Sequence record: MZ501074
Strand: one strand, 5' to 3'
DNA length: 64,000 nucleotides
From: Escherichia phage HildyBeyeler
Position numbers and translations under genes: made by a program. How positions within the stretch are numbered: the stretch's first letter is position 1; every line of letters starts with the position of its first letter. Positions 28,759-44,204 of this stretch are shown here, piece by piece. Below the pieces are notes generated by a model, which saw only the letters and a list, made by a program, of their open reading frames with translations, was not told the origin of the DNA and made no database searches.

Positions 28759-29597
28759 TGCAACAATACTTAAAAATTTTGACAGATGTAATTTTACTAG
28801 GTGAACCCCGTAATGACCGTACAGGAACAGGCACAGTTTCAATTTTTGATTCCTATGCTAAGTTCGATCTACGTGAGGGATTCCCTGCCGTAACCACTAA
28901 ACGTCTAGCCTGGAAATCAGTAGTAGGAGAACTTTTATGGTTCTTGTCTGGTTCCACAAATCTTCATGATCTACGTGTATTCACATTTGGGCGTGACGAA
29001 GGACAGTGGACCATCTGGACTCCAAATTATGAAGACCAAGCTATAAGTATGGGGTATGATAAGGGTAATCTAGGACCGGTATATGGTAAACAGTGGCGTA
29101 ACTTTGGTGGGCGAGATCAGATTCTAGAACTTATTGAAGGACTCAAGAATAATCCTCATGGCCGCAGACATCTAGTTTCTGCATGGAACGTAGCTGAACT
29201 TGATAAAATGGCATTACCGCCCTGCCACTACGGCTTCCAGTGCTATGTAAGTAACGATGGATACCTAGATCTTAAATGGACACAACGTTCTGTAGATTGT
29301 TTCCTCGGTTTACCCTTCAATATTGCTAGTTATGCTTTATTAACGCATATATTAGCAAAACTGACAGGATTAAAACCTCGTTATCTCATCTTTAGTGGTG
29401 GAGATACTCATATCTATAATGACCACATGGAACAGGTAGAAGAACAGGTAAAACGCAAGCCACGCCCTCTACCAACTCTAGTAATGCCAGAGTTTGTAGA
29501 TCTTTACGATTTATTAGAAAATAATACGGCAGCTTGGTCCTTCCAGCTTGAAGGATATGATCCGCATCCGGCTCTTAAAGCTAAAATGTCTTCCTAA
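28758..29597 (+). CDS. thyA: thymidylate synthase (279 aa)
   Basis: Active-site motif ALPPCHYGFQCYV and TS fold signatures. Confidence 0.9.
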   Translation: MQQYLKILTDVILLGEPRNDRTGTGTVSIFDSYAKFDLREGFPAVTTKRLAWKSVVGELLWFLSGSTNLHDLRVFTFGRDEGQWTIWTPNYEDQAISMGYDKGNLGPVYGKQWRNFGGRDQILELIEGLKNNPHGRRHLVSAWNVAELDKMALPPCHYGFQCYVSNDGYLDLKWTQRSVDCFLGLPFNIASYALLTHILAKLTGLKPRYLIFSGGDTHIYNDHMEQVEEQVKRKPRPLPTLVMPEFVDLYDLLENNTAAWSFQLEGYDPHPALKAKMSS

Positions 29598-29603
29598 CTC
29601 AAA

Positions 29604-29630
29604 TAGCCCTTCGGGGCTATTATATTTAAA
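29604..29630 (+). terminator. intrinsic terminator after thyA
   Basis: TAGCCC-TTCG-GGGCTA hairpin followed by a T-rich tract. Confidence 0.65.
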
Positions 29631-29636
29631 TTTCAT

Positions 29637-29665
29637 TTGCTTATTTAGTGAAATTTAAATATAAT
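29637..29665 (+). promoter_or_regulatory. sigma70 promoter (TTGCTT, 17 bp, TATAAT)
   Basis: Follows the thyA terminator. Confidence 0.65.
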
Positions 29666-29690
29666 ATATTTTATAAATTGGAGGTATATA

Positions 29691-29972
29691 ATGATTTCAG
29701 CCAAAGAAGCTCAAGAACTTGCAGGATTAACAGAAGTACCCGCATTCCTAAAGTTTATAGAAGAAAAGATTGTAGAAGCTGCTAAGTCTGGAAATACAGA
29801 AGTAATTATTCGAGATAATCCTTACGCTAGGTGGCTATATAATCCTAGAGAAATGCCAGGAGCAGCTAAATCGGTACTAAAAACCTTATCGGATAAGGGG
29901 TATCACCTCTCACAATACTACCGAGAAGCCGCCTTTGTAGACATGGGTCTTAAAATTAGTTGGGAGGTATAA
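29691..29972 (+). CDS. hypothetical protein (93 aa)
   Basis: GGAGG RBS; follows terminator and promoter. Confidence 0.55.
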   Translation: MISAKEAQELAGLTEVPAFLKFIEEKIVEAAKSGNTEVIIRDNPYARWLYNPREMPGAAKSVLKTLSDKGYHLSQYYREAAFVDMGLKISWEV

Positions 29973-30448
29973 TGTCGGTTTTCCACATTTACACAGATGG
30001 TGCTTGTAAGTCTAACCCAGGTCCAGGTGCTTGGGGTTTTATTGTCTATAATGATAACGACGATCGTTTAGGTTCTAAATCTGGTTATAATCCTAAAACT
30101 ACAAATAATGAGATGGAACTCACAGCTATTGTAGAAGCTCTACGTTGGTCTGTTAAAAAAGATAATAGACCAATTGCTATCTATACTGATTCTGCTTATT
30201 GCAAAAATGGCATGGAAAGTTGGATGTTTTCTTGGCAAAGGAAAGGCTGGAAGAAAGCAGATGGTGAAGTTCCCCTTAATCTAGAACTTTGGCAGGAAGC
30301 ATTTAAATTAACACAGCAGTATATCAACTTTCATAATATTAACCCTACTTTTATTAAGGTTAAAGGACATTCTGGTATTAGTGGTAATGAAGCTGTAGAC
30401 GCCTTATGTAACACAGTTATTACTGAGCAAGAACTTGCCGAGATGTGA
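29972..30448 (+). CDS. rnh: ribonuclease H (~158 aa)
   Basis: RNase H1 signature HIYTDGACKSNPGPGAWG and downstream DSAY/GHSG motifs; GGGAGG RBS. Confidence 0.8.
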   Translation: MSVFHIYTDGACKSNPGPGAWGFIVYNDNDDRLGSKSGYNPKTTNNEMELTAIVEALRWSVKKDNRPIAIYTDSAYCKNGMESWMFSWQRKGWKKADGEVPLNLELWQEAFKLTQQYINFHNINPTFIKVKGHSGISGNEAVDALCNTVITEQELAEM

Positions 30449-30469
30449 TAAGTAAATTAAAAATTCAAT

Positions 30470-30498
30470 TGCTTAAAGCCCTCTAATTTAGTATAATA
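30470..30498 (+). promoter_or_regulatory. sigma70 promoter (TTGCTT, 17 bp, TATAAT)
   Basis: Consensus hexamers with A-tract upstream. Confidence 0.65.
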
Positions 30499-30524
30499 TT
30501 CGTATTGAAAGTGAGGAGGGCTTT

Positions 30525-30809
30525 ATGAGAATTTATAACTCAAATTCATTAGGATTTAAACCATTGAGAAAACGTGCACAATCACCTCGTCAAATAAGAA
30601 AGGCTAATATTGGTGAACCAGAAACACGTCTTCCACCTCCTCCAGAACAACGTTTAGTTTATCTGGACGAAGAATTAGCGGAACGCGAAAGAAAAGCTCA
30701 AGAAGAGATTAAGCATAAGAAAATGTGTACTGCTCCAGCCTACTCCAAAGGGGCTTATCAATATATCTATACAGCCGAGGAGGCTAAAGATGCGGGGCGT
30801 AAAAAATGA
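30525..30809 (+). CDS. hypothetical protein (94 aa)
   Basis: GAGGAGG RBS; own promoter. Confidence 0.5.
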   Translation: MRIYNSNSLGFKPLRKRAQSPRQIRKANIGEPETRLPPPPEQRLVYLDEELAERERKAQEEIKHKKMCTAPAYSKGAYQYIYTAEEAKDAGRKK

Positions 30810-31255
30810 AGATTACTGAATTTAAAGGTACTTATAGTTTTTTATCTAACTTTTATTTATCACCAATTACTTTCGAATATCTAAATGAGATATGGCATGC
30901 TGATACTGTAGAACATGCTTTTCAGGCTATGAAATCCGACCAAAAAGATGATGTAGCTCATGTGCTGCGCTCCCTAAATGCAGGAGTTGCCAAACGTAGA
31001 GGACGTAAATTAACTCTGCGCTCTGACTGGGATAAGGTAAAAGATGATGTAATGTTAGAGCTTTTACGGTTAAAGTTTGCAATCCCTGATTTGAGGGACA
31101 AACTGTTAGCAACAAAAAATGCAACTTTGATCGAAGGAAATACCTGGGGAGATACATACTGGGGTGTTTGCCGAGGCATCGGGGATAATACTTTAGGAGT
31201 TCTTTTGATGCAGGTAAGGTCTGAAATTAAAAGAAGTTTACAGTTAATAAATTAA
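30806..31255 (+). CDS. NADAR-domain (YbiA-like) protein (149 aa)
   Basis: FLSNFY...EHAFQAMK signature of the NADAR/DUF1768 family. Confidence 0.65.
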   Translation: MKITEFKGTYSFLSNFYLSPITFEYLNEIWHADTVEHAFQAMKSDQKDDVAHVLRSLNAGVAKRRGRKLTLRSDWDKVKDDVMLELLRLKFAIPDLRDKLLATKNATLIEGNTWGDTYWGVCRGIGDNTLGVLLMQVRSEIKRSLQLIN

Positions 31256-31263
31256 AAATTCAT

Positions 31264-31292
31264 TTGCTAAACGCTTCAAATTCTAGTATAAT
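31264..31292 (+). promoter_or_regulatory. sigma70 promoter (TTGCTA, 17 bp, TATAAT)
   Basis: Consensus hexamers plus ACTTCATAAATTGA downstream box. Confidence 0.7.
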
Positions 31293-31330
31293 ATACTTCA
31301 TAAATTGATAAACAAAAAGGAAAATAAATA

Positions 31331-31846
31331 ATGGCTAAGCAGAAAAACGCAAAAACTCAAGCAGCAACTACAGTTAAAACTTTCCCTCAGACTGAGGCTA
31401 ACCGCAAAGCTCGTCTGGAACGCCACCTGCGCAAGCATCCTACTGATGCTCAAGCTGCACAGGCACTGAATCGTCCGGCTCCGATTCGTCAAAAGCCGAA
31501 GGCTAAGAATGCTACTCGTTCTGTAACCCGCCTTGTGACCTATGTACAGGGTTATGGCCACAAATCTGTTCCAGTAACACTGAGTTTCAATGCTGGAGCT
31601 GAATTGTTCCCTCGTAATGGCATGGCCATGAAAGATTACGAGAAAGCAGTTAACCAGAAACGCAAGCCAACGGCAGATGTGCTTCGTGACACTCATGGAC
31701 AGTTTGGCTCTGTTAAGCCAAATATCTTTGGCGTAGAGTATAGTAAAGATAGTGTTCGTGCTCTGTGTTACGGTGTAGGCATTAAGTTCACTGGTGATTC
31801 TGCTCGTAAATCTGCTAAACCAGCTCGTAAACGTAAAGCGAAGTAA
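31331..31846 (+). CDS. hypothetical basic protein (171 aa)
   Basis: Lys/Arg-rich; own promoter; terminator follows. Confidence 0.5.
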   Translation: MAKQKNAKTQAATTVKTFPQTEANRKARLERHLRKHPTDAQAAQALNRPAPIRQKPKAKNATRSVTRLVTYVQGYGHKSVPVTLSFNAGAELFPRNGMAMKDYEKAVNQKRKPTADVLRDTHGQFGSVKPNIFGVEYSKDSVRALCYGVGIKFTGDSARKSAKPARKRKAK

Positions 31847-31857
31847 TAGATAGGAGG

Positions 31858-31884
31858 GGCGAAAGCCCCTCATATTTTGGAGAA
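31858..31884 (+). terminator. probable intrinsic terminator
   Basis: AGGGGC-GAAA-GCCCCT hairpin followed by CATATTTT. Confidence 0.5.
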
Positions 31885-31887
31885 ACT

Positions 31888-32124
31888 ATGCGTAATTTTG
31901 TAGTAAAGAATGATTTTAACCGTGCTAGCACCCATAAGTCCGCTAGAGATTATACACGACTTTCTAGTCATGAGGTAATGGATACCTGTTATGAAGAGCT
32001 GGAAGATAACTGGAATGAATGGCCAGACTTTTCTATGGAAGAAAACTGGGATGTTAGTGAAGATATGCTTCCTGGTTTTAAAGACCCCAAGAAGTGGGAG
32101 TCTATTAAAGAGACAGCTCTTTAA
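31888..32124 (+). CDS. hypothetical acidic protein (78 aa)
   Basis: ORF with RBS. Confidence 0.45.
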   Translation: MRNFVVKNDFNRASTHKSARDYTRLSSHEVMDTCYEELEDNWNEWPDFSMEENWDVSEDMLPGFKDPKKWESIKETAL

Positions 32125-32152
32125 TAGTTTTCTACACAATAAAGGATAAGTT

Positions 32153-32854
32153 ATGAAAGTAAAACCATTTGGTATGCTAGATATTGAATCTCTAGGAACT
32201 CCGGGGGATTGTGGTACTACTCATATCGCAATGCCTTCTTTCGCTTTTGTGGCTATGCATGGGATTGATAAAGACCCTGACTTAGTATTTGCTACTTTGG
32301 ATGTGCAGGATCAGCTTAATTCTGGTGCCAAAGTTACAGCATCTACTCTAGCATTCTGGATGGATCAAGCTAAAAATAGCCCGTCTGCTATTCACATTAT
32401 GGAAGCTATGAAGGAACGTAATCCAAAACTGATTGCCTTCCAAAATGGTAAACATCATTGCACTACTAAATTAGGCTCAAACTATGCTGCCTTCTCTATG
32501 GCTCAAAATATTATGGAGTTGGCTCTAGGCGAAAATGCTTTGTATTATGGCAATGGCCCAGAGTTTGATATGACTATCTACTCTGCAAACACGTTCCATG
32601 CTGGAACCAATGAAGAGGTAGTTCCGTGGAAATTCTGGAATTTAGGCAATGTTCGATCTCTTCGTAATCTCTGGATGCAAGCGGGTTATAGTTACAAAGA
32701 TCTAGAGGCTGAAGGTATTAGCTGGGCAAAAGCTAAAATGGAGAAGATGGACACCATTCGTTATGGGATCTATCCGGTTAAGCACGACCCAGCATTCGAT
32801 GCCCTAGTTGAGGGCTATTGTGTTGCAGCTATGATCGAAAAAATGAAAATTTGA
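32153..32854 (+). CDS. hypothetical protein (233 aa)
   Basis: AAAGGA RBS. Confidence 0.55.
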   Translation: MKVKPFGMLDIESLGTPGDCGTTHIAMPSFAFVAMHGIDKDPDLVFATLDVQDQLNSGAKVTASTLAFWMDQAKNSPSAIHIMEAMKERNPKLIAFQNGKHHCTTKLGSNYAAFSMAQNIMELALGENALYYGNGPEFDMTIYSANTFHAGTNEEVVPWKFWNLGNVRSLRNLWMQAGYSYKDLEAEGISWAKAKMEKMDTIRYGIYPVKHDPAFDALVEGYCVAAMIEKMKI

Positions 32855-32855
32855 T

Positions 32856-32884
32856 TTGCTTCCGGCTCCAAAATTCTGTATAAT
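32856..32884 (+). promoter_or_regulatory. sigma70 promoter (TTGCTT, 17 bp, TATAAT)
   Basis: Consensus hexamers plus ATTTATAAATTTGAGA box. Confidence 0.7.
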
Positions 32885-32925
32885 ATATTTATAAATTTGA
32901 GAAAACAATAAAAGGAAAAACAAAT

Positions 32926-33108
32926 ATGCCAGTATCTAAAAATGTTCGTAAAAATGGTAAGAAAGCTACTCGTAATCTGGGTATCCGTCGTATGGCCGAA
33001 CGTCAATCAGGTGTCCAGAAAATCTTTGATCTGTTAAATCGTGCTAATCCTAAAATTGATAACAGTAATGATACTGTTCTGCGCACTCTGCTGGCAATTG
33101 GTCTGTAA
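32926..33108 (+). CDS. hypothetical basic protein (60 aa)
   Basis: Own promoter and RBS. Confidence 0.45.
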   Translation: MPVSKNVRKNGKKATRNLGIRRMAERQSGVQKIFDLLNRANPKIDNSNDTVLRTLLAIGL

Positions 33109-33161
33109 TAGATCAAATTTAAACAAATTCAAATCTCAAACTTCATATAAGGAAGCAAATA

Positions 33162-33800
33162 ATGACTACTCGTATTTCTAAAACTCGCGCTCTGGCAACT
33201 ATCAAATCTCTGGAAGCTAAAATCCGTAAAGCTGCTGAACAGCAGGTTCTGATCGCTGTTGGTGAAGGTAAGGATAAAAATAAGGTTGTAGTTGGCGCTG
33301 CAATCGAAGTAGACGATCTGTCCGCCCGTATTAAGGCAGATTTCCAATCTCTCCTGGATATGATGTCCCAGCGTGATCGTATCAAAGCTGCTCTGATTAA
33401 GAGCAATGCGGAAACAATCGTTGAGATTGGCTCTCGTAAGATGACTGTTGCGGAAGCAATTGAAGCTAAGCGTTCTATGGAACTTAAAGCCCAACTGCTG
33501 GCTAACATGCGTAAGCAGTTCCAAGCCGCTACGGCTAAGTTTAATACGCAGAAAGCACAGTTTGATGCTAAATATGAGCGTTTGCAGGATAGCATGGCTA
33601 CCCGCGATAAGAAAACTTCCGAAGATGAAGTTAAAATGCAGCTCAACCTGCTGGAACTCAAGAATACTCCATTCTTGATTGATCCGCTGGAACTGGAGAA
33701 GCTGATTAAGCAGCATGACGAGGAATACCAGGACTTTGCAACAAATGTTGACTTTGTTCTGTCCGAGTCTAACGCCTCTACCTTCATTGAAGTAGAGTAA
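33162..33800 (+). CDS. hypothetical coiled-coil protein (212 aa)
   Basis: AAGGAAG RBS; preferred over the antisense ORFs covering the same span. Confidence 0.55.
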   Translation: MTTRISKTRALATIKSLEAKIRKAAEQQVLIAVGEGKDKNKVVVGAAIEVDDLSARIKADFQSLLDMMSQRDRIKAALIKSNAETIVEIGSRKMTVAEAIEAKRSMELKAQLLANMRKQFQAATAKFNTQKAQFDAKYERLQDSMATRDKKTSEDEVKMQLNLLELKNTPFLIDPLELEKLIKQHDEEYQDFATNVDFVLSESNASTFIEVE

Positions 33801-34183
33801 TAATTTAAAAGCTAGTAAATCGGTAGACGAAAGCCCAAGCATCTTACCTCGCAGCAGCGGTTGAAATACGAGGTTAAATAAGACCGCTGACCATACTATA
33901 AAGTATAATCTATTGGAGATTATGTTTATTACATCAGACATTTAATCTGACACGTAAAAACAAAGCGTCGTTGATATTACCGACACAACTTCAAAGATCA
34001 ACATTTAAGTATGAAAGCTGAAAAGTTTAAAGAACTCAAACTTCTAAACTTCTAAAGCTAAAAGATGCAAAGTATTCGTTGATGATTCAAACCCTAGATC
34101 AAAGGTACATGGCTCATAAGATATGGCCTGTGGCGCCTCTAGGCTGTTTATCGGTTTACTAGTTTCACAATTTAAAAATGTAT

Positions 34184-34212
34184 TTGCTAATTTATTAAGT
34201 TATCTGTATAAT
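34184..34212 (+). promoter_or_regulatory. sigma70 promoter (TTGCTA, 17 bp, TATAAT)
   Basis: Precedes HNH gene 34243-35064. Confidence 0.65.
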
Positions 34213-34242
34213 ATATTTTTAAATTGATGAAACGAGGCTATT

Positions 34243-35064
34243 ATGGGTAAATTACAAAAACAAATACTACCATATATAGATTATATCCGAGAAATTATAG
34301 AGTATAATCCCTATACTGGTAAATTATTCTATAAGCCTAATAAATATAAGAATAAAACTTGGCATACTTTATATGCTGGGAGAGAAATATGTAGTAAGAA
34401 CTCTGATGGGTACATCAGAGTTAGTTTGCTCTTAGATAATAAACCCACAATTATTTATGGACACCGAATAGCGTGGCTCCTTCACTATGGGGAGGAACCA
34501 CCTGCTATGATTGATCATATAAATACTATACCGTGGGATAATAGAATTATTAACCTAAGAGAGACAAATTTTAAGTTAAACAGACTTAATACTAACAAAA
34601 CGGTAGGTGTAGAGCTGCTGCCAGAAGGATTTGTGTACAGCATTACATTAGGTGAAAAGTTTTTTGTATCCCCCGGCTTCCCCACTTTCGAACAAGCTAA
34701 AGTGGAAAGAGAAAAACTAGTAAATGGTTTATGTAATGCAGAAATTGGGAAGCAGACCAATATTCTAATAGACGATGTTAGAGATTTACCTGAAATGTCC
34801 ATTATTTGTCGTACAGTTATAGGTGCGCTGGAACTATCAGATGTGTTTAGTTTCACAGGATCCTATTTATTTATGGACTCAGATTTAGGAGATTCAGAGG
34901 TACAAGGAAAAGATTTATTAGATCATATACTATTATTAGGTCAAAGACCCCTAAAAGTGATTCTAGTAACATCTAATCCTGTTGACGCAGAGTACATGAG
35001 AGGTACTCTTACGTCTTATGGATACCGAGAAAATCCCAATAGATTAGAATATGATCTATTTTAA
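34243..35064 (+). CDS. HNH homing endonuclease (273 aa)
   Basis: HNH motif IDHINTIPWDNRIINLRETN; own promoter. Confidence 0.8.
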   Translation: MGKLQKQILPYIDYIREIIEYNPYTGKLFYKPNKYKNKTWHTLYAGREICSKNSDGYIRVSLLLDNKPTIIYGHRIAWLLHYGEEPPAMIDHINTIPWDNRIINLRETNFKLNRLNTNKTVGVELLPEGFVYSITLGEKFFVSPGFPTFEQAKVEREKLVNGLCNAEIGKQTNILIDDVRDLPEMSIICRTVIGALELSDVFSFTGSYLFMDSDLGDSEVQGKDLLDHILLLGQRPLKVILVTSNPVDAEYMRGTLTSYGYRENPNRLEYDLF

Positions 35065-35076
35065 GGAGTAAAAAGA

Positions 35077-35526
35077 ATGAAGGCAGCTTTGCTTTTAGTA
35101 GCTGCCCTTACCTTCAGCTTCAATAGTCATGCGACCTACGACTCAAAGCAGATTGATTGCATTGCAAAAAATATCTACTTCGAAGCACGAGGTGAGGGCA
35201 TAAAGGGAATGACGGCGATTGCACACGTTACTAAAAACCGTGTTAACTCTGGTACTTTTCCTGATTCTTACTGTAAAGTAGTATATCAGTCTAACCAGTT
35301 CTCTTGGGTATCTAAGAGACCAAAAGTTGATAAAACTGATGAGGCTTGGAAAACCGCCAAGAATTTAGCTAGAGTGATATACTACGTTGATTCACCACAA
35401 GATCCTACACATGGAGCGTTATACTTCCATAGTGGTAAAGATAAACCGCGCTGGACAAAGAAGTTTAAGAAAACAACTAAGATTGAGGGACATACATTTT
35501 ATAAGCCTGTTGTCACTAAAACTTAA
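35077..35526 (+). CDS. secreted cell-wall hydrolase, SleB/CwlJ-like (149 aa)
   Basis: Signal peptide MKAALLLVAALTFSFNSHA; NIYFEARGE...KNR block. Confidence 0.55.
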   Translation: MKAALLLVAALTFSFNSHATYDSKQIDCIAKNIYFEARGEGIKGMTAIAHVTKNRVNSGTFPDSYCKVVYQSNQFSWVSKRPKVDKTDEAWKTAKNLARVIYYVDSPQDPTHGALYFHSGKDKPRWTKKFKKTTKIEGHTFYKPVVTKT

Positions 35527-35534
35527 AAATTTAT

Positions 35535-35563
35535 TTGCTTAAATACTTAAACTTCTGTATAAT
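35535..35563 (+). promoter_or_regulatory. sigma70 promoter (TTGCTT, 17 bp, TATAAT)
   Basis: Consensus hexamers plus CTTTCATAAATTAATGAGAGG box. Confidence 0.7.
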
Positions 35564-35594
35564 ACTTTCATAAATTAATGAGAGGAAGCGAAAT

Positions 35595-35765
35595 ATGAAA
35601 AACTTGATCGTCATTGGTGTTAACACTCGCGGTATTCGTACTACGAAAACTGTTAAAACTTCTAACGTTGCTGAGATCACTACGAACCCTAAAAAGTTTG
35701 ATTTCGCCAAAGTCTCAGCAGTTATGACAGAACAATCTTTTAACCAAGCGTTAGGAATGAAATAA
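35595..35765 (+). CDS. hypothetical small protein (56 aa)
   Basis: Promoter and GAGAGGAAG RBS; ATG overlaps next gene (TAATG); below the ORF-track cutoff. Confidence 0.5.
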   Translation: MKNLIVIGVNTRGIRTTKTVKTSNVAEITTNPKKFDFAKVSAVMTEQSFNQALGMK

Positions 35766-36208
35766 TGGGAGAGAATATTTTAGATGTTTTGCGTAGAGCT
35801 TTGCAGGATTCTAAGTTTAATGGTTCTGATAAAGAAGTCGCTAAAAGCTATCAGACCATAATCGGGGATCTTCAGCGTATTGATAAAGATTTCATCACTT
35901 CTGAACAATTTGTGTCTTATCTCAAAGCTCAACTAAAAAGCATTAACCAGATGAAAGCTAAACTTCATGGTCAAGATCTTGATAGTTATAGCTTGCAGTC
36001 CGCTCAGTATGAATACATTCTAAATAAGTGGTTGCAGGAGTATCTGCCTCCTCAGTTATCTGATACTGAGATTCGTAAATACTTTGCAGAATTAGTTAAG
36101 CTAAACCCTGGAATTACAAAAGGTATGCTGATGAAAGCGATTAAGGAAGAATTTCCTGGGCGTTATGATGGTGGTACTGCTGCTCAGATTGCTGGCGAAT
36201 TTAATTAA
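35765..36208 (+). CDS. GatB/YqeY-domain-like protein (147 aa)
   Basis: C-terminal KGMLMKAIKEEFPGRYDGGTAAQIAGEF resembles the YqeY domain. Confidence 0.45.
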   Translation: MGENILDVLRRALQDSKFNGSDKEVAKSYQTIIGDLQRIDKDFITSEQFVSYLKAQLKSINQMKAKLHGQDLDSYSLQSAQYEYILNKWLQEYLPPQLSDTEIRKYFAELVKLNPGITKGMLMKAIKEEFPGRYDGGTAAQIAGEFN

Positions 36209-36216
36209 AAATTTAT

Positions 36217-36245
36217 TTGCTAAATGCCTATAAATTCTGTATAAT
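36217..36245 (+). promoter_or_regulatory. sigma70 promoter (TTGCTA, 17 bp, TATAAT) at the head of the tRNA cluster
   Basis: Consensus hexamers plus ATTAATAAATTAGAGAA box; no ORF follows for about 900 nt. Confidence 0.7.
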
Positions 36246-36468
36246 ATATTAATAAATTAGAGAACAGCGGGCCGATTACGCTGAGTGCAGAATCCAAACC
36301 GGAGTGCATTGAATAGAGTCGGTGGGTTAGTTGTAAAACTAGTACACAGTGGGCGGCAATCCCGGTTAGTGGCTAGAACGTGTAAAATGGGGCGTCTGAA
36401 ACCTCTCCCCTAAACTCTTCTCTAGTTTATAAATAGTGGGGTGTGGAAATCACTTATGTAGTAACACT

Positions 36469-36540
36469 GCCGATCTAGTATAAACGGTATTATCAAGCCG
36501 TAACTGGTGGAAGATGTAGGTTCGAATCCTACGATCGGTA
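36469..36540 (+). other. tRNA-like minihelix element (7-bp acceptor-like stem plus T-arm; no anticodon arm found)
   Basis: GCCGATC at 36469-75 pairs with GATCGGT at 36533-39; GTAGG-TTCGAAT-CCTAC T-arm at 36516-32; interior does not fold into D and anticodon arms. Confidence 0.3.
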
Positions 36541-37041
36541 AGAACTGGATAACTGGTGCTTTTAACGTAAAAGCTTCCGAGGTTAGTTGCGCACTGCCTA
36601 AACCACGCGGTAGTTGGTTCCAGACTAACCAACCAGTCTGCTGAATAGTTTTATTACGATTTAACTATGTCCAGGCTAAAGAAGAACTTTAGAAGGTATT
36701 CTAGGTGGTGAAGTTTTTCCTCCATATCGGAGTAGTTTTTCAAGCTACCAACAAAGTGGGAAATGCTGACATGAGAGATGTCACTAATGGTGCACAATAG
36801 CACAGGTAATTCGCGATAACTCCTGTTGAGTAGCAGCAAAAGGCGGGAAGTCATGACCCCAAGCCTAACCGAGTCCTCAATATACCGCAGGACATAACCA
36901 CTAAGTCACCCTGACTTAAACTGGAAAATAATAGACGTTACTGTATTTTGTCTTGAAATACTTAATGAGTGAGACTTATGACTCTCCCGGTATCGTCTGT
37001 ATTTTTAAGAGTTTTTACGAGAGTTCTTAAAAATACTTAAA

Positions 37042-37116
37042 CGGGGTGTAGTCTAAGGGAGAGGCAGGAGTCTTCTAAATTCCTTTATGCAGGTTCGAAT
37101 CCTGTCACCTCGGCCA
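37042..37116 (+). tRNA. tRNA-Arg (anticodon UCU), CCA encoded
   Basis: Hand fold: acceptor CGGGGTG/CACCTCG, D-arm, anticodon loop CU-UCU-AA, T-arm GCAGG-TTCGAAT-CCTGT, G73, CCA. Confidence 0.75.
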
Positions 37117-37150
37117 ATTTTATTAACTGTAACTAAAACAAAGGAAATAT

Positions 37151-38098
37151 ATGTTTAATACTAAAAATATGAAAGAACTGACTTCTGAGCAAAAAGTAAT
37201 TCGCACTATTAAACGTTGGGGTATTGGTTCTGTAGTTGGTTTAGCAGGTTTAATCCTAGCTTTTAATTCATATACTATTGTTTCTGATGGTACAGTTAAA
37301 ACCCAAACATTTCTGGGTAAAGTAGATCCTAACCCAGTATTACCTGGTTTCCATCTTGTAAACCCATTTGCATCTTTCGATACTTTTAGTACAAAAGATA
37401 TTGCTGTAAAATTAGATAAACTTCAGGTTCCTAGCCAGGATAAGTTTAAATCCACTGTTGACCTGACTGTTATGTTGCAGTTTGATGGTTCTAAGGCACC
37501 GATCAACCGTATTAATGCAGGTACTCAGGATCAGGCGTTAGACAAATATGTTACTGAAAAATTACTGTCTACCATCCGTGAGTTTGGTAAGTCTGTACCT
37601 AAAGCACAAGATTTGTTTGATGCTAAAATTCAAGCACAATTACAAACTGCAATTCAACAGGAAGTTGAAGAGTATGCACGCCCTTATGGTTACACAGTTA
37701 AGCAAGTGTTCCTTCAGGATATTACATTGCCACCGGTAATTATGGAACAGGTACAGAATACCAAAGTTCGTGAAGAACAAGTTAATGCTGCGAAAGCTGA
37801 ATTGGCTCGTGTTGAACAAGAAGCACAGCAGAAGGTTAAACAAGCAGAAGCAGATCGTGAAGCTCGTAACAACCAAGCTATTGCAAACGAACGTGATGCA
37901 GATGCTAAACTGTATGCAGCTAAGAAAGAAGCCGAAGCTAACGCCGCTCTGCAACGTACTATTACTCCTGAGATGATTCGCTGGAAACAACTAGAAGTTG
38001 AAATGACTCGTGCTCAGAAGTATCAAGGTGGTGTGCCTCAGACTGTAGTAGGTACTGGTTACGATGGTCAAATGATCATGGATATGCGTAACAAGTAA
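37151..38098 (+). CDS. SPFH/band-7 (stomatin/prohibitin-like) membrane protein (315 aa)
   Basis: N-terminal TM helix, SPFH core, long Ala/Glu-rich coiled coil; terminator follows. Confidence 0.65.
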   Translation: MFNTKNMKELTSEQKVIRTIKRWGIGSVVGLAGLILAFNSYTIVSDGTVKTQTFLGKVDPNPVLPGFHLVNPFASFDTFSTKDIAVKLDKLQVPSQDKFKSTVDLTVMLQFDGSKAPINRINAGTQDQALDKYVTEKLLSTIREFGKSVPKAQDLFDAKIQAQLQTAIQQEVEEYARPYGYTVKQVFLQDITLPPVIMEQVQNTKVREEQVNAAKAELARVEQEAQQKVKQAEADREARNNQAIANERDADAKLYAAKKEAEANAALQRTITPEMIRWKQLEVEMTRAQKYQGGVPQTVVGTGYDGQMIMDMRNK

Positions 38099-38121
38099 TA
38101 GTTACACGTAATCTTCGAAGT

Positions 38122-38161
38122 AAGCCCTGTGTTCCCTGGAGAGCGCAGGGCTTTTCTGTTT
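38122..38161 (+). terminator. intrinsic terminator after the SPFH gene
   Basis: AGCCCTG...CAGGGCT stem followed by TTTCTGTTTT. Confidence 0.6.
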
Positions 38162-38324
38162 TAAGGTAGAGGATAAGTGTGTCTCTTTGGTCACTCAGCT
38201 ATGACAAATACTTTACACTATATCACATTGAAAATCAAGTGGGGATAACAATTTTGGGGTCTATCCACTTACCTGCTACCCTTAAGCATCCTGTTATTTT
38301 CCTCTAAAAAGTTAAAAAATTCAA

Positions 38325-38353
38325 TTGCTTGAATGCTAAATTCTCTGTATAAT
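38325..38353 (+). promoter_or_regulatory. sigma70 promoter (TTGCTT, 17 bp, TATAAT)
   Basis: Consensus hexamers plus ACTTATAAATTTGAGAGAGAGG box. Confidence 0.7.
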
Positions 38354-38385
38354 ATACTTATAAATTTGAGAGAGAGGAATCTAGT

Positions 38386-38904
38386 ATGACTGTTGATGAA
38401 CTAACAGAACATCTCTTATCTAGAGGGTTTGATACAGATAAGTATCATTGCTGGTTAAGTCCGGAAGGATGGCTAACAGTCCCGTTGTATGACTTCTCTG
38501 GGATGTTGAGAGGCTATCAGACTTATAATCCTTCTGCTCCAAAAGGTCATGGTAAGTGCCCCTTTGAAGCTAAATATTTTACTTATTCAACTACACAGTG
38601 TGTATGGGGATTAGAAACTCTCAATGGAGATGAAAAAGTAGTATTGATTGCTGAATCTGTATTTAAGGCAGTTGCGTTACATAACGCTGGTTATCCAGCC
38701 CTGGCAATGTTGGGTTCTTCCCCCGGAAAAGCATTGTTAAAGCAATTGAAATTATTACCTTTTAAATTGGTAGCTGTCGGAGATAATGATCCTGCGGGTG
38801 AAAAATTTGCTAGAAAATTAAACGGCTTTGTTTCTCCTGTAGATGTAGATGAGATGTCTACCGAAAACTTGAAAAATTTTCTTGCTATGAAGCTAAATTT
38901 CTAA
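38386..38904 (+). CDS. hypothetical protein, possible Toprim-like domain (172 aa)
   Basis: VVLIAESVFKAVAL...LVAVGDNDPAGEKFARKL; 3' end overlaps promoter 38882-38910. Confidence 0.4.
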   Translation: MTVDELTEHLLSRGFDTDKYHCWLSPEGWLTVPLYDFSGMLRGYQTYNPSAPKGHGKCPFEAKYFTYSTTQCVWGLETLNGDEKVVLIAESVFKAVALHNAGYPALAMLGSSPGKALLKQLKLLPFKLVAVGDNDPAGEKFARKLNGFVSPVDVDEMSTENLKNFLAMKLNF

Positions 38905-38924: not shown

Positions 38925-39013
38925 GGAAGAATAGCATAACGGTATTGCAGCAGATTGCTAATCTGTCGGTTTGAAATATAGCCTTGTGGGTTCGATTCCC
39001 ACTTCTTCCGCCA
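38925..39013 (+). tRNA. tRNA-Ser (anticodon GCU), long variable arm, CCA encoded
   Basis: Acceptor GGAAGAA/TTCTTCC, anticodon loop UU-GCU-AA, long extra arm, T-arm GTGGG-TTCGATT-CCCAC. Confidence 0.75.
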
Positions 39014-39019
39014 AATTCT

Positions 39020-39097
39020 GGTTCTCAAGCTCATATGGTATGAGCACCCAGCTCATAACTGGAAGGTACGTAGGTTCGAATCCTCGGGGAGCCACCA
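39020..39097 (+). tRNA. tRNA-Met or Ile2 (anticodon CAU), CCA encoded
   Basis: Acceptor GGTTCTC/GGGAGCC with G-U pairs, D-stem GCTC/GAGC, anticodon loop CU-CAU-AA, TTCGAAT T-loop; T-stem imperfect. Confidence 0.6.
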
Positions 39098-40804: not shown

Positions 40805-40881
40805 ATTCCTAGAGTGTTACTGGACAGCATGTCGGTCTCCAAAACCGTACGGTCTAGGTTCGAGTCCTAGTAGGTTTGCCA
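40805..40881 (+). tRNA. probable tRNA-Trp (anticodon CCA), CCA encoded; 5' boundary uncertain
   Basis: Anticodon arm TCGGT-CUCCAAA-ACCGT, T-arm CTAGG-TTCGAGT-CCTAG, 3' G-CCA; acceptor has U-U mismatches. Confidence 0.5.
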
Positions 40882-40887
40882 AAATTT

Positions 40888-40962
40888 GCACCTTTAGCTG
40901 AGATGGATTAGCGCTTGCCTGAAGAGCTTGAGAGGTTGGATCGTTACCAACGGGGTGCACCA
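40888..40962 (+). tRNA. possible tRNA-Phe (anticodon GAA), CCA encoded; non-canonical T-loop
   Basis: Acceptor GCACCTT/GGGGTGC and D-stem GCTG/TAGC are clean; anticodon stem has two U-U mismatches; T-loop AUCGUUA. Confidence 0.4.
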
Positions 40963-40978
40963 AATTGAAGGAGCTGCT

Positions 40979-41252
40979 GATGCATCCTGAAAACTTCTTT
41001 ATTTACTGCGCGGATAAGTCGCTGAAACGTAGAATTAACAAAGTCTATCATTATCGTGCTAGTCAACAGCCTTATGTATACGCTTTTGACGGTGATCACA
41101 TTCCACTAGAACAATTATCTTGTGATTACATGATATTGAAGAACTTTGACGAGACGAAGATCTCAAGCGTTTATAATCGACAGAATCCATTAACGTGGAA
41201 ATATAAGAAGAAAAAGAAAGGCATCAAATTCTTAAAAAATATAGTTGCTTAG
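40979..41252 (+). CDS. hypothetical protein (~90 aa)
   Basis: GAAGGAG RBS 5 nt before the ATG at 40979; the track ORF starts at an upstream TTG. Confidence 0.45.
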
Positions 41253-41273
41253 TTTCCAAAAGTTCTGTATAAT
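41245..41273 (+). promoter_or_regulatory. sigma70 promoter (TTGCTT, 17 bp, TATAAT)
   Basis: Hexamers plus AATTACATAAATTGAACTGGAG box; precedes tRNA-Cys. Confidence 0.65.
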
Positions 41274-41321
41274 AATTACATAAATTGAACTGGAGAAGCA
41301 ACATGATAGAACAAGATAAAT

Positions 41322-41397
41322 CGACCGTTGGCTGAATGGCTTAGGCGAAGGATTGCAAATCCTTTTTATGTGAGTTCAAATCTCATGCGGTCGTCCA
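41322..41397 (+). tRNA. tRNA-Cys (anticodon GCA), CCA encoded
   Basis: Acceptor CGACCGT/GCGGTCG, anticodon arm AAGGA-UUGCAAA-TCCTT, T-loop TTCAAAT. Confidence 0.75.
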
Positions 41398-41399
41398 AT

Positions 41400-41540
41400 T
41401 TGCTGAAAGAATTGTTAAATCAATTCAGGCACGCGTAGGAACACTGTCTCCGTAATTGAAAGATGAGGCACGGTTTGGAGAGGTATGCCGCTACACGCTA
41501 CGGTGCTAACTCCGTCTAGGTGAAAATCCTAGTCAGCAAT
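41400..41540 (+). ncRNA. candidate structured RNA (141 nt) with tRNA-like termini
   Basis: TTGCTGA at 41400-06 pairs perfectly with TCAGCAA at 41533-39; CTAGG-TGAAAAT-CCTAG hairpin sits just before the 3' strand; D-arm-like GAAT/ATTC near the 5' end; no ORF. Confidence 0.35.
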
Positions 41541-41549
41541 GTAAATTTA

Positions 41550-41635
41550 GGGTCGTTGGCTGAACGGTTTAAGCGCCGGACTGTTAATCCGTATCCGCAA
41601 GGATAAAGTAGGTTCAACTCCTACACGGCCCGCCA
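41550..41635 (+). tRNA. tRNA with anticodon GUU (Asn-type) but a long variable arm, CCA encoded
   Basis: Acceptor GGGTCGT/ACGGCCC, 3-bp D-stem, anticodon loop CU-GUU-AA, 15-nt extra arm with GCAA loop, T-arm GTAGG-TTCAACT-CCTAC, G73. Confidence 0.55.
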
Positions 41636-41737
41636 AATTCTGTGTAGAGTTAAGTAAACCGGTAGCCAACCAGCTATCATTGCTGACATCGAATTCAGCC
41701 ACAGATACCATTTTCATTAATAACTAAGGAAACAAGC

Positions 41738-42640: not shown

Positions 42641-42762
42641 CAAAATCTCAGTGCAGAACACGGAGCTAGCAATTCGGAAATGCTGACTCATGATAAGCTG
42701 CCTATGTACTTGCGAAGCGGTCGTGTCCAAGACTCGGACTCTTGCACTGAAAACAATCAAAC

Positions 42763-42883
42763 ATTCTAGCGTGGTTGATGGGGAAACCAGCTTGGCTAGG
42801 GCAGAAGCTCGTTCGATTCGAGTGAAAGAATGGTTCTCGTAAGTCCGCACAAGTGATAACAGGTTCGAGTCCTGTCTAGAATG
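42763..42883 (+). ncRNA. candidate structured RNA (121 nt) with tRNA-like termini
   Basis: ATTCTAG at 42763-69 pairs perfectly with CTAGAAT at 42876-82; T-arm-like ACAGG-TTCGAGT-CCTGT before the 3' strand; internal GCTCG-TTCGATT-CGAGT hairpin. Confidence 0.35.
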
Positions 42884-42897
42884 ACACTATAAAGTTT

Positions 42898-43012
42898 ACT
42901 TATTATGTAGGTTCCGATAGACCGGCGGGTCTATTCTGGCATTTAAGAGAGGTCTCGCAAACTTCTTTGTCAGCCGTGGGGTTGATAGCCCCCAGGTGGC
43001 CTACACAATAAG
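42898..43012 (+). repeat. 14-bp inverted repeat (13 of 14 pairs) enclosing about 87 nt of hairpin-rich sequence
   Basis: ACTTATTATGTAGG at 42898-911 pairs with CCTACACAATAAGT at 42999-43012; internal hairpins ATAGACC/GGTCTAT and GGGG/CCCC. Confidence 0.65.
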
Positions 43013-43868: not shown

Positions 43869-44204
43869 ATTTATATAAATTGATGCGAAAATAGCTGCCT
43901 AGATACCAGGTGTATGACGTCTACACTAGCAGAGCTACCGAAAAAGAGATCCCCAGGATAAACGTCGTAGCAAAATTAGTCTGGTATCCATCAATTTAGT
44001 TCACTAAGGTATTAGCTCGACCTAGGACTGGCTGCCAAAAAGCACGATCCCTACGATTCGGGAGAAGTTCTAGATTAGTCCACTAGATTCAGCGGCAACT
44101 GAATAGTGTATTGGGTTTGCGAGATGACGCAGTTCCTTCCGCTCGAAGCGAAGGTGCTGTAGTTACGCCGAGCTAATAGCCTTAGTAAACTAGAAGGAAT
44201 ATCT

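What the first reader, a model, noticed from the sequence alone, without database searches (positions are those of the whole stretch)
36246..37041. An 800-nt ORF-free, hairpin-rich transcript segment opens the tRNA cluster
A consensus promoter at 36217-36245 is followed by about 800 nt with no ORF longer than a few codons on the plus strand, ending at tRNA-Arg (37042). The segment holds many stable local hairpins, for example GCTTTTA-ACG-TAAAAGC near 36557 and GTTGGTT/AACCAAC near 36613, plus a tRNA-like minihelix at 36469-36540. Everywhere else in this region genes are tightly packed, so a promoter-driven non-coding stretch this long is atypical. It could encode one or more stable small RNAs or a processing scaffold for the downstream tRNAs.
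Basis: seen in the sequence. Interest (0 to 1): 0.65.

Follow-up and report, generated by a model that had tools for sequence, protein, structure and literature searches.

The report
T5 RNAX: large structured phage RNA
The ORF-free stretch is the T5-family gene rnaX, long annotated as a "stable RNA of unknown function"; comparison of relatives shows it is a real, roughly 790-nt, five-domain folded RNA that heads the phage tRNA cluster, and what it does is still unknown.

Summary
The window is a T5-like phage. Positions 36246-37041 correspond to rnaX/RNAX, annotated "stable RNA with unknown functions" in phage T5 (NC_005859) and Salmonella phage 5, and labelled rnaX in BF23. The object is therefore already on record, but it is unannotated in most of the more than 500 related genomes and absent from Rfam.

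The observation largely holds. The promoter, tRNA-Arg, the named hairpins and a tRNA-like element are all present. There are small plus-strand ORFs of 31-45 aa, but stops or frameshifts break them in relatives. Folding energy alone is unremarkable (z = -1.8).

The decisive evidence is covariation. I find five independently closed domains:
- a variable 5' domain;
- a four-way junction carrying a tRNA-like element on a 12-bp stem;
- a hairpin domain;
- a second four-way junction;
- a universal 3' three-way junction with a 17-bp hairpin abutting tRNA-Arg.

Compensatory changes exceed the shuffled and slid controls. Two of the domains recur in three Demerecviridae lineages.

Best reading: a modular non-coding RNA co-transcribed with tRNA-Arg and released by RNase P. 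It is analogous to, but not a member of, the GOLLD/ROOL RNAs of phage tRNA islands. Its function is unknown, and no expression data were available.

The parts
36217..36245 (+). Sigma-70 early promoter (-35 TTGCTA at 36217-22, -10 TATAAT at 36240-45). The predicted +1 is about 36252; the T5 and phage 5 records start rnaX at about 36258-59.
   Evidence: Promoter scan. Annotated promoter P16-17 in NC_005859 and AJ604531. Conserved in all relatives aligned.
36252..37041 (+). RNAX, the whole non-coding RNA (about 790 nt), running from the promoter to the base before tRNA-Arg.
   Evidence: Annotated misc_RNA rnaX in T5 and phage 5. 577 phage records match in distant blastn. No conserved ORF. No Rfam family other than tRNA.
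36252..36430 (+). Domain 1 (variable 5' domain). It is closed by stem 36252-64/36418-30. Inside, the conserved helix GCCGAUU 36271-77 / AGUCGGU 36317-23 flanks a variable hairpin.
   Evidence: Minimum-free-energy fold. Closing stem: the GA insertion on the 5' arm is matched by a UC insertion on the 3' arm in TrudiGerster-type phages, and G->A is matched by C->U in YZU-L1 and phiR201. T5 has deleted the interior and kept only the stem. An HNH gene replaces the domain in MSP1, SE3, atrejo and CitS1.
36436..36606 (+). Domain 2, a four-way junction closed by GUGG 36436-39 / CCAC 36603-06. Its arms are the outer stem with the tRNA-like element, hairpin 36558-74, and hairpin 36582-86/36594-98.
   Evidence: Alignment A8: the closing helix is 100% paired, with AUGG/CCAU in YZU-L1. 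The 36582-98 hairpin changes GGCAG/CUGCC to GACAG/CUGUC. Stitch has GCUG/CAGC where TrudiGerster has GCGG/CCGC.
36449..36557 (+). A 12-bp irregular 'outer stem' (36449-62 paired with 36544-57) that carries the tRNA-like element. The spacers are AACACU on the 5' side (invariant in the 18-sequence alignment A1) and (U/A)AAGA on the 3' side (its AAGA invariant in A1).
   Evidence: (MAFFT alignment, 18 sequences): 99.5% of cells paired and 6 of 12 pairs with changes on both sides. (21 sequences, including phiR201, Sugarland and My1): 8 of 12 pairs. Slid-partner controls give at most 7 of 39 pairs for the whole structure.
36469..36540 (+). tRNA-like element. It has a 7-bp acceptor stem, a D arm and a canonical T arm (UUCGAAU loop), but its 'anticodon' arm is 3-4 bp with a 6-nt loop (GUAACU), and no CCA is encoded.
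   Evidence: Rfam tRNA 39 bits and ARAGORN. T stem and 'anticodon' stem covary. The arm is greatly extended in phB7, Sugarland, IME260 and GZ8. The T arm is missing in Sepoy, BSP22A and Kp150049.
36607..36755 (+). Domain 3. It contains hairpin 36613-19/36627-33, helix 36681-90/36710-19 enclosing hairpin 36691-94/36699-702, and hairpin CUCC/GGAG at 36720-23/36729-32.
   Evidence: GUUGGUU/AACCAAC becomes GUUGAUU/AAUCAAC in YZU-L1. In alignment A3, two pairs carry compensatory changes (AA/UU to GC/GC and UC/GA) and one-sided G-C to G-U changes keep the long helix. The 36635-77 part is predicted by energy only.
36756..36901 (+). Domain 4, a second junction closed by GUGG 36756-59 / CCAC 36898-901. 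Its hairpins are E1 36767-83, E2 36788-36835, E3 36841-66 and E4 36873-93. The E3 loop holds the invariant palindrome GUCAUGAC (36850-57).
   Evidence: (14 sequences): 98.2% of cells paired; 10 pairs changed on both sides against 4.1 +/- 1.1 in shuffles (0 of 500 reach it) and 0-3 in slid controls. Palindromes are listed.
36904..37041 (+). Domain 5 (universal 3' domain):
- hairpin AGUCA-CCC-UGACU, 36904-16;
- conserved UAAACUGGAA, 36917-26 (its AACUGGA core is invariant);
- three-way junction, with P1 36933-42/36989-98, hairpin a 36943-61, CUUAAU 36961-66 (CUUAA invariant) and hairpin b 36967-84;
- 17-bp AU-rich hairpin, 36999-37036;
- tail UUAAA.
   Evidence: Model R1 was built without window-type sequences. 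It finds 36904-37041 at 85.5 bits (E about 1e-17), gives one strong plus-strand hit (at least 79.7 bits) in each of the 27 T5-like RNAX loci searched, and gives none in 37 unrelated loci or in Providencia locus L018. It is also found in Pectobacterium phage My1 (42.9 bits). Minimum-free-energy z = -2.85.
37042..37116 (+). tRNA-Arg(UCU) with encoded CCA. Its 5' processing site would define the 3' end of RNAX.
   Evidence: ARAGORN and Rfam (49.3 bits). In the T5 and phage 5 records rnaX ends at the base before tRNA-Arg.
38122..38153 (+). First terminator-like site downstream on the plus strand. It implies one transcription unit: RNAX, tRNA-Arg, then the SPFH/Band-7 gene (37151-38098).
   Evidence: Terminator scan. 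The T5 record annotates an 'efficient bidirectional rho-independent terminator' at the equivalent place. Band_7 Pfam hit.

Best explanation
Positions 36252-37041 are rnaX, a non-coding RNA that works as a folded RNA on the plus strand.

Transcription and maturation. Host RNA polymerase transcribes it from the early promoter at 36217-45. It forms the first part of a unit RNAX, tRNA-Arg, SPFH gene (shown: promoter, gene order, and no plus-strand terminator before 38122). Its 3' end is most likely made by RNase P cutting at the 5' end of tRNA-Arg (37041/37042). That leaves the 17-bp hairpin 36999-37036 as a 3' cap, while the 5' end is buried in the closing stem of domain 1. These are features expected of a stable RNA (inferred).

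Fold. The RNA folds as five separately closed domains. Helices in each are kept by compensatory mutations (shown). Two domains are multi-helix junctions closed by the same motif, A(A/U)AGUGGG...AACCAC. One of them presents a tRNA-shaped element on a 12-bp stem.

Evolution. Modules have been gained, lost or swapped between lineages. The junction stems and the 3' domain are constant (shown).

Function. I read it as a modular scaffold RNA of the same general kind as GOLLD and ROOL: large structured RNAs of phage tRNA islands. It probably acts in the phage's tRNA or translation take-over early in infection, by binding a protein or another RNA. This last step is inferred; I give it about 0.35. The biochemical function is unknown.

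The overall confidence of 0.8 applies to the core claim: rnaX is a functional, structured, non-coding plus-strand RNA.
For: - Identity with annotated rnaX.
- Wide conservation: 577 records for the whole region, 488 for domain 2 and 520 for domain 5.
- Covariation beyond controls:
  - Domain 2: 14 of 39 pairs against 9.0 +/- 1.2 in shuffles and at most 2 in slid controls; 24 of 39 against 12.9 +/- 1.9.
  - Domain 4: 10 of 40 against 4.1 +/- 1.1.
  - Domain 5: 46 compensatory cells against 16 +/- 3.4.
  - Junction closure and the 36582-98 hairpin.
  - Domain 3.
  - Domain 1 stem.
- Strand: many G-U pairs alternate with G-C or A-U (for example UA:10/UG:10). On the minus strand these would be A-C mismatches, so the plus strand is the folded one.
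- Model specificity: the covariance models hit one site per T5-like genome and no unrelated control locus.
- Breadth: domains 2 and 5 are present in Markadamsvirinae, Sugarlandvirus and Pectobacterium phage My1.
- No conserved ORF.
- Published viable T5 deletions in the tRNA region (30661-38625 and 29191-32442) stop short of rnaX at 40848-41566 (PMC11464382).
- GOLLD/ROOL traits used for the analogy come from PMC12286853.
Against: - No expression, end-mapping or stability data could be examined. 'Stable RNA' rests on GenBank annotation, whose experimental basis I could not trace.
- Folding energies are near those of shuffled sequence for most domains.
- Strong modularity fits a string of separate small RNAs as well as one large RNA. 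Domain 1 is deleted in T5 or replaced by an HNH gene, domain 4 is absent in some lineages, and extra modules occur in others.
- The tRNA shape is not universal; the T arm is lost in Sepoy-type phages.
- No similarity to GOLLD or ROOL models at E <= 10.
- Covariation in domain 5 is modest on the pair-count measure (35 of 500 shuffles reach it).
- The sequences are closely related phages, so shuffle controls overstate significance. The slid-partner controls are the safer comparison.
Confidence: 0.8

Rival explanations
1. RNAX is not one RNA. It is a polycistronic precursor that RNase P (at the internal tRNA-like element and at tRNA-Arg), RNase E and/or RNase III cut into four or five separate stable small RNAs of 130-180 nt. 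These would resemble the other T5 'stable RNAs' (RNAI, RNAIII, RNA1, RNA2 and others).
For: - Each domain is closed by its own stem, and domains are gained or lost independently.
- The window also carries all seven other T5 stable RNAs (73-172 nt), two of them tRNA-like.
- The internal tRNA-like element has a 7-bp acceptor stem, which PMC4201824 names as a major RNase P determinant.
- The repeated closure motif could mark module borders.
Against: - The covarying 12-bp outer stem would keep the 5' and 3' parts paired even if the tRNA-like element were excised.
- The tRNA-like T arm is absent in some lineages.
- The T5 annotators recorded a single 719-nt RNA.
- No processing data are available.
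Confidence: 0.35
2. The functional core is the tRNA mimic. Displayed on a stem, it acts as a decoy or handle for a tRNA-binding factor: a host anticodon nuclease or other tRNA-targeting defence, a tRNA-modifying or processing enzyme, or the phage YqeY-like protein encoded just upstream.
For: - The D arm, T arm and acceptor stem are conserved, with a non-decoding 6-nt 'anticodon' loop.
- T5 tRNAs are known counter-defence factors (tRNA-Lys against PARIS: PMC11464382; tRNA-Tyr against a retron: abstract of 10.1101/2023.03.15.532788).
- The upstream gene has a weak YqeY-domain match (25.2 bits, below the 27-bit cut-off).
Against: - Sepoy-type phages lack the T arm but keep the stem and flanks.
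- Sugarland-type phages and phB7 replace the anticodon arm with a long extension.
- The mimic is less than 10% of the RNA, and the other domains are equally conserved.
- The YqeY gene is not adjacent in Sugarlandvirus.
Confidence: 0.12
3. It is a cis-acting leader: a processing scaffold or regulator for tRNA-Arg and/or the downstream SPFH gene.
For: It lies between the promoter and tRNA-Arg in the same transcription unit. The 17-bp hairpin directly abuts the tRNA.
Against: - ORFs lie between RNAX and tRNA-Arg in 26175I, YZU-L1, CitS1, SE19, IME260 and My1. The hairpin is conserved there all the same.
- The other 19 tRNAs in the window have no such leader.
- No terminator/antiterminator pair was found.
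Confidence: 0.06
4. It is non-functional debris: decayed tRNA genes and homing-endonuclease scars, or it hides a small protein gene.
For: - The region is a mosaic, with HNH genes inserted at domain borders.
- A degenerate tRNA is present.
- Some annotators call small ORFs here.
Against: - Compensatory substitutions across five domains and three phage lineages.
- All ORFs are broken in relatives.
Confidence: 0.04

Closest known systems
rnaX / RNAX of phage T5 (NC_005859, misc_RNA 40848-41566), Salmonella phage 5 (AJ604531) and BF23 (NC_042564)
   Same: Same locus, same promoter (P16-17), and same 3' neighbour, tRNA-Arg. Identity is 97% to phage 5 over the whole length and 93-99% to T5 over the shared parts.
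   Different: - T5 itself lacks about 150 nt, the interior of domain 1, so its RNAX is 719 nt against about 790 here and 785 in phage 5.
- The records give no structure and no function.
- Most other T5-like genomes leave the region unannotated, or call the tRNA-like element tRNA-Ser, -Sec, -Pro, -Leu or -OTHER, or add small ORFs.
GOLLD and ROOL RNAs (large ornate RNAs of phages and prophages)
   Same: - Phage-encoded and located at a tRNA island.
- Roughly 600 nt to over 800 nt, multi-domain, with covariation-supported structure.
- GOLLD has a conserved 3' region and a variable 5' region and sometimes carries tRNAs inside; RNAX has a universal 3' domain, a variable 5' domain and an internal tRNA-like element.
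- Function is unknown for all of them (PMC12286853).
   Different: - No match to either Rfam model at E <= 10, so there is no evidence of homology.
- Their hosts are mainly Lactobacillales, rumen, marine and mycobacterial, not enterobacterial T5-like phages.
- The homo-oligomeric cage assembly that defines their known structures is untested for RNAX.
Other T5 'stable RNAs' (RNAI, RNAIII, RNAIV, RNA1, RNA2, RNA2H, RNA3)
   Same: They lie in the same tRNA region, carry the same kind of annotation, are closed by terminal stems, and are all present in this window. RNA1 and RNA2 are tRNA-like.
   Different: They are 73-172 nt single modules. No sequence similarity to RNAX was found in the window beyond the T-loop motif.
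Bacterial Y RNAs (YrlA), which are tRNA mimics attached to a protein-binding stem
   Same: A tRNA-like module (D and T arms) is joined to a long conserved stem. Some are phage-encoded. D. radiodurans Yrn1 also has a 6-nt 'anticodon' loop (PMC4201824).
   Different: - YrlA is drawn with a stem-loop between its T and D arms standing in for the acceptor stem. The RNAX element instead has the normal tRNA order, and its stem extends beyond the acceptor ends.
- No neighbouring Ro60/Rsr gene was seen here.
- No family other than tRNA appears among the Rfam matches.

Membership tests
T5 rnaX (RNAX) | Located between the YqeY-like gene / promoter P16-17 and tRNA-Arg(UCU), upstream of the SPFH gene | tested here: met
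   Same gene order in the window and in T5 and phage 5.
T5 rnaX (RNAX) | Nucleotide homology to the annotated rnaX | tested here: met
   97.4% identity over 99% of the query to phage 5. T5 matches 36413-36926 at 92.6% and 36904-37150 at 98.8%.
T5 rnaX (RNAX) | Accumulates as a stable RNA in infected cells | not testable with these tools
   Only the GenBank note says so. No paper or dataset was found.
GOLLD (Rfam) | Match to the family covariance model (conserved 3' region) | tested here: not met
   No GOLLD hit at E <= 10 in 36240-37045, nor at E <= 0.5 in longer variants.
ROOL (Rfam) | Match to the family covariance model | tested here: not met
   No ROOL hit.
GOLLD/ROOL-like class (functional analogy only) | Phage-encoded, beside a tRNA island, large, multi-domain, covariation-supported | tested here: met
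   Class traits are from PMC12286853.
GOLLD/ROOL-like class (functional analogy only) | Forms RNA-only homo-oligomers (nanocages) | not testable with these tools
   The only hints are invariant self-complementary loop sequences (GUCAUGAC 36850-57, UCGCGA 36811-16). Palindromes are not enriched overall: 10 observed against 13.2 expected.
tRNA | Cloverleaf with a 5-bp anticodon stem and a 7-nt loop | tested here: not met
   The acceptor, D and T arms fit (39 bits), but the anticodon arm is 3-4 bp with a 6-nt loop in the aligned sequences that keep a short arm. Scores fall below the 29-bit gathering score in Riker and phiR201.
tRNA | 3' CCA end for aminoacylation | tested here: inconclusive
   No CCA is encoded: the acceptor stem is followed by A-AGA, whereas the neighbouring tRNA-Arg gene does encode CCA. 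Post-transcriptional CCA addition cannot be excluded from the sequence.
YrlA / bacterial Y RNA | [quoted passage not shown] | tested here: not met
   The module order is unpermuted and the stem lies beyond the acceptor ends. No family other than tRNA appears among the Rfam matches. The flanking genes examined are YqeY-like and SPFH. Family features are from PMC4201824.

The most novel reading that the evidence does not exclude
RNAX is the enterobacterial counterpart of GOLLD and ROOL. On this reading it is an abundant early phage RNA whose repeated GUGG/CCAC-closed junction modules and invariant self-complementary loops drive RNA-only self-assembly, or capture of tRNAs or ribosomal components, so that the RNA contributes to translation take-over or to escape from tRNA-targeting defence. 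If so, the classical and genetically tractable T5/E. coli pair would be the first easy system in which to find out what tRNA-island giant RNAs do.
Probability: 0.15. Interest if true: 0.85.

Novelty: already known. Interest (0 to 1): 0.5.

Why it matters
The RNA itself has been on record in GenBank for years as 'RNAX, stable RNA with unknown functions'. It is missing from Rfam and from most T5-like genome annotations, and I found no paper on it.

- Annotation. More than 500 phage genomes carry it. Many mislabel its tRNA-like element as tRNA-Ser, -Sec, -Pro or -Leu, or place hypothetical ORFs on it. A covariance model would correct those records.
- Biology. Large structured RNAs next to phage tRNA islands (GOLLD, ROOL) have solved structures but no known function. 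An analogous, covariation-supported RNA of 0.8-1.3 kb in T5-like phages of E. coli, Salmonella and Klebsiella offers a tractable system. Natural variants already exist: T5 lacks the interior of domain 1, Sepoy-type phages lack the T arm, and Sugarland-type phages carry extra modules.

Tried and rejected
- Rfam search at permissive thresholds on the window and on longer variants found only tRNA.
Blastn found no RNAX similarity in any of them.
- IMG/VR scans returned essentially the GenBank isolates already available, plus chance hits.
- Literature searches for RNAX, T5 stable RNAs and T5 transcriptomes found nothing on this RNA.
- Folding-energy z-scores are uninformative for most domains.
- The single-sequence minimum-free-energy pairing GGUUAGU/ACUAACC (36581-87 with 36624-30) was rejected. 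Relatives instead support the local hairpins 36582-98 and 36613-33.
- Coding hypotheses: all five candidate ORFs are broken in relatives.
- Repeats: no second copy of any RNAX module was found elsewhere in the window.
- Palindrome enrichment, as a hint of self-association, is not above chance.
- MAFFT mis-registers helix P1 of domain 5 for window-type sequences, so a covariance-model alignment was used. That alignment leans towards the model structure, and I say so where I cite it.
- Providencia phage PSTCR5 shares only the promoter. Models R1 and R2 gave no hit (E <= 1) in the 5-kb stretch fetched.
Full report
**What the window is.**
The window is a T5-like phage (family Demerecviridae). The best match is Escherichia phage vB_EcoS_HZ_ZJUN2 at 98.8% identity. 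In the T5 RefSeq record the homologous stretch is annotated misc_RNA rnaX, 'RNAX, stable RNA with unknown functions'. It is 719 nt, lies between promoter P16-17 and tRNA-Arg, and is followed by a membrane protein gene and a bidirectional terminator. The Salmonella phage 5 record carries the same annotation (785 nt), and the BF23 record labels the same locus rnaX. The records give no structure or function. Six of my eight literature searches were aimed at this RNA, and none found a paper on it.

**Checking the observation.**
- The promoter TTGCTA-17-TATAAT lies at 36217-45.
- tRNA-Arg lies at 37042-37116.
- The '36469-36540 minihelix' is a full tRNA-like cloverleaf. Rfam tRNA scores 39 bits against a gathering score of 29. 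ARAGORN calls it an odd tRNA-Ser(act).
- The stretch is not literally ORF-free. The plus strand has ORFs of 42, 45 and 31 aa and the minus strand has ORFs of 60 and 66 aa. Each acquires stop codons or frameshifts in relatives, so there is no conserved coding frame.
- Thermodynamic stability is not remarkable. The whole RNA gives z = -1.83. Individual domains range from +0.5 to -2.85.

**Comparative material.**
- Distant blastn finds the region in 577 phage records, domain 2 in 488 and domain 5 in 520.
- In almost every listed record the feature under the domain-5 match is 'none'.
- I fetched about 50 loci. They cover Tequintavirus, Epseptimavirus, Klebsiella Sugarlandvirus, Yersinia phiR2-01 and Pectobacterium My1.
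- Pairwise mapping shows a mosaic. Blocks are conserved in a fixed order, while the segments between them differ, are deleted, or are replaced.
- T5 has lost the interior of the 5' domain. MSP1, SE3, atrejo and CitS1 carry an HNH endonuclease gene in its place.
- 26175I, YZU-L1, CitS1 and SE19 carry a 170-aa ORF between the RNA and tRNA-Arg.
- Many lineages have one or two extra modules. The non-coding stretch reaches about 1.3 kb in Klebsiella phages and about 1.6 kb in phiR2-01.

**Structure: domain 2 (36436-36606).**
- A 12-bp irregular stem (36449-62 paired with 36544-57) encloses the tRNA-like element.
- On a plain MAFFT alignment of 18 sequences this stem is 99.5% paired, and 6 of its 12 pairs change on both sides.
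- The whole domain has 14 compensatory pairs, against 9.0 +/- 1.2 in shuffles (0 of 500 reach it) and 0-2 when partners are slid.
- With 21 sequences aligned to a covariance model, including phiR2-01, Sugarland-type phages, phB7 and My1, 24 of 39 pairs are compensatory against 12.9 +/- 1.9 in shuffles and at most 7 in slid controls. This alignment is fitted to the structure.
- The T stem covaries.
- The 'anticodon' arm is a covarying 3-4 bp stem with a 6-nt loop, so the element cannot decode.
- The domain is closed by GUGG 36436-39 / CCAC 36603-06, with AUGG/CCAU in YZU-L1.
- It also contains hairpin 36558-74 and hairpin 36582-98. The latter reads GGCAG/CUGCC or GACAG/CUGUC in different phages. 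In Stitch-type phages a long insert is closed by GCUG/CAGC, against GCGG/CCGC in TrudiGerster.

**Structure: domain 4 (36756-36901).**
This is a second junction closed again by GUGG/CCAC, with four hairpins. It is 98.2% paired. Ten pairs are compensatory, against 4.1 +/- 1.1 in shuffles and 0-3 in slid controls.

**Structure: domain 5 (36904-37041).**
- From 5' to 3' it consists of a small hairpin, the conserved UAAACUGGAA (AACUGGA core invariant), a three-way junction, the CUUAAU segment (CUUAA invariant), and a 17-bp AU-rich hairpin ending 5 nt before tRNA-Arg.
- A model built only from non-window lineages recovers the window copy at 85.5 bits.
- It gives one strong plus-strand hit in each of the 27 T5-like RNAX loci searched. 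Weaker minus-strand matches of at most 33 bits come from the near-palindromic terminal hairpin.
- It gives no hit in 37 unrelated loci or in Providencia locus L018.
- Pair counts are supportive but more modest. There are 46 compensatory cells against 16 +/- 3.4 in shuffles. There are 8 compensatory pairs against 6.0 +/- 1.0, a value reached by 35 of 500 shuffles.

**Structure: domains 1 and 3.**
- Domain 3 has covarying hairpins, and one long helix is kept by one-sided G-C to G-U changes.
- The closing stem of domain 1 shows a GA insertion on one arm matched by a UC insertion on the other. It also shows G->A matched by C->U.

**Which strand folds.**
Many positions alternate between G-U and G-C or A-U pairs. 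That fits the plus strand only.

**Breadth.**
- Pectobacterium phage My1 belongs to a different subfamily. It has domain 2 at 86 bits; its annotated 'tRNA-Leu' is the tRNA-like element. It has domain 5 at 43 bits, about 370 nt downstream.
- Real tRNAs score at most 32 bits, and over the tRNA part of the model only. A few weak full-length alignments (at most 31 bits) span adjacent tRNA genes.
- Sepoy-type phages keep the outer stem and its flanks but lack the T arm. The tRNA shape is therefore common but not obligatory.

**How it most likely works.**
- Shown: the promoter, the gene order, the absence of a plus-strand terminator before 38122, the non-coding nature, and a conserved modular fold on the plus strand.
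- Inferred: RNase P cutting at tRNA-Arg releases the RNA with a hairpin-capped 3' end and a stem-buried 5' end, which would make it stable. It then acts as a scaffold RNA in the early, tRNA-centred phase of infection.
- I cannot decide between one large RNA and several processed modules.
- The window also holds the seven other T5 'stable RNAs' of 73-172 nt. That makes the several-pieces view credible.
- The covarying outer stem would nevertheless keep the halves together after any excision.

**Comparison with known systems.**
- Membership in T5 rnaX is met on position and sequence.
- GOLLD and ROOL share the lifestyle: phage origin, a tRNA island, large size, a conserved 3' region with a variable 5' region, and internal tRNAs (PMC12286853). 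Their covariance models do not match. This is analogy, not membership.
- YrlA Y RNAs are tRNA mimics on a stem, but the order of their tRNA-like arms is permuted and they are linked to Ro60 (PMC4201824). Neither feature is seen here.

**Verdict.**
The finding is real and correctly interpreted. The object is already annotated, so it is not a discovery of a new entity. What appears not to be documented is its five-domain, covariation-supported architecture, its repeated GUGG/CCAC module closure, and its distribution across Demerecviridae. Interest is moderate: function is unknown, the system is tractable, and the RNA is possibly a counterpart of GOLLD and ROOL.

Noticed in passing
window 41638-41710, 42762-42886, 42905-43007, 44010-44181, 45202-45346, 45347-45453, 45458-45563: All seven other T5 'stable RNAs of unknown function' (RNA3, RNA2, RNAIV, RNA2H, RNA1, RNAI, RNAIII) are present in the window's tRNA cluster at 85-100% identity to T5. 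Each folds with a closed terminal stem, and RNA1 and RNA2 are tRNA-like. None was listed by ARAGORN.
   Followed up: partly
window 39070-39084: A 15-nt exact match to the T-arm sequence of the RNAX tRNA-like element lies just after tRNA-Ser(GCT) (38925-39013). ARAGORN calls no tRNA there. T5 has tRNA-Ile2(CAU) next to its tRNA-Ser3, so this may be a degenerate or missed tRNA.
   Followed up: no
L005 653-1135, L014 653-1132, L259 1317-1799; L003 1616-2125, L010 1627-2136, L259 2416-2925, L261 2387-2896: Relatives carry ORFs at RNAX domain borders. One, of about 160 aa and annotated 'homing endonuclease' in MSP1, sits right after the promoter in place of domain 1. Another, of about 170 aa, sits between domain 5 and tRNA-Arg. 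This looks like homing-endonuclease traffic around conserved RNA sequence.
   Followed up: partly
window 36469-36540 and homologues in GenBank records: Different genome records annotate the same tRNA-like element as tRNA-Ser, tRNA-Sec, tRNA-Pro, tRNA-Leu, tRNA-Gln or tRNA-OTHER. Several records place 'hypothetical protein' CDSs on either strand of RNAX (Sugarland, Riker, Sepoy, TrudiGerster). These are probably annotation artefacts.
   Followed up: partly
window 35765-36208: The gene just upstream of RNAX is variously annotated 'tRNA amidotransferase', 'recombination-related exonuclease' or 'YqeY-like'. Pfam gives only a sub-threshold YqeY match (25.2 bits against a 27-bit cut-off) over residues 90-142. 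A YqeY-type domain next to a tRNA-like RNA is suggestive, but I did not test it.
   Followed up: partly
window 36850-36857 and 36811-36816: The 8-nt palindrome GUCAUGAC is invariant in the loop of hairpin E3, whose stem covaries. A CGCG-core palindrome sits in the E2 loop: UCGCGA here, CGCGCG in T5. Such self-complementary loops could mediate RNA dimerisation, but palindromes are not enriched overall (10 observed against 13.2 expected).
   Followed up: partly
window 36435-36441 / 36601-36606 and 36754-36760 / 36896-36901; TrudiGerster, Kp150049 and KpRe28-2 sequences: The same closure motif, A(A/U)AGUGGG ... AACCAC, brackets domain 2, domain 4 and the extra modules of other lineages. Successive modules are joined by CCAC-(4-6 nt)-GUGG. 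This suggests module duplication, or a shared recognition or processing signal.
   Followed up: partly
window 36844-36861, minus strand: The terminator scan reports a minus-strand terminator-like site inside RNAX. It is simply the reverse complement of hairpin E3 followed by a T-rich run, and is probably not a real terminator.
   Followed up: no
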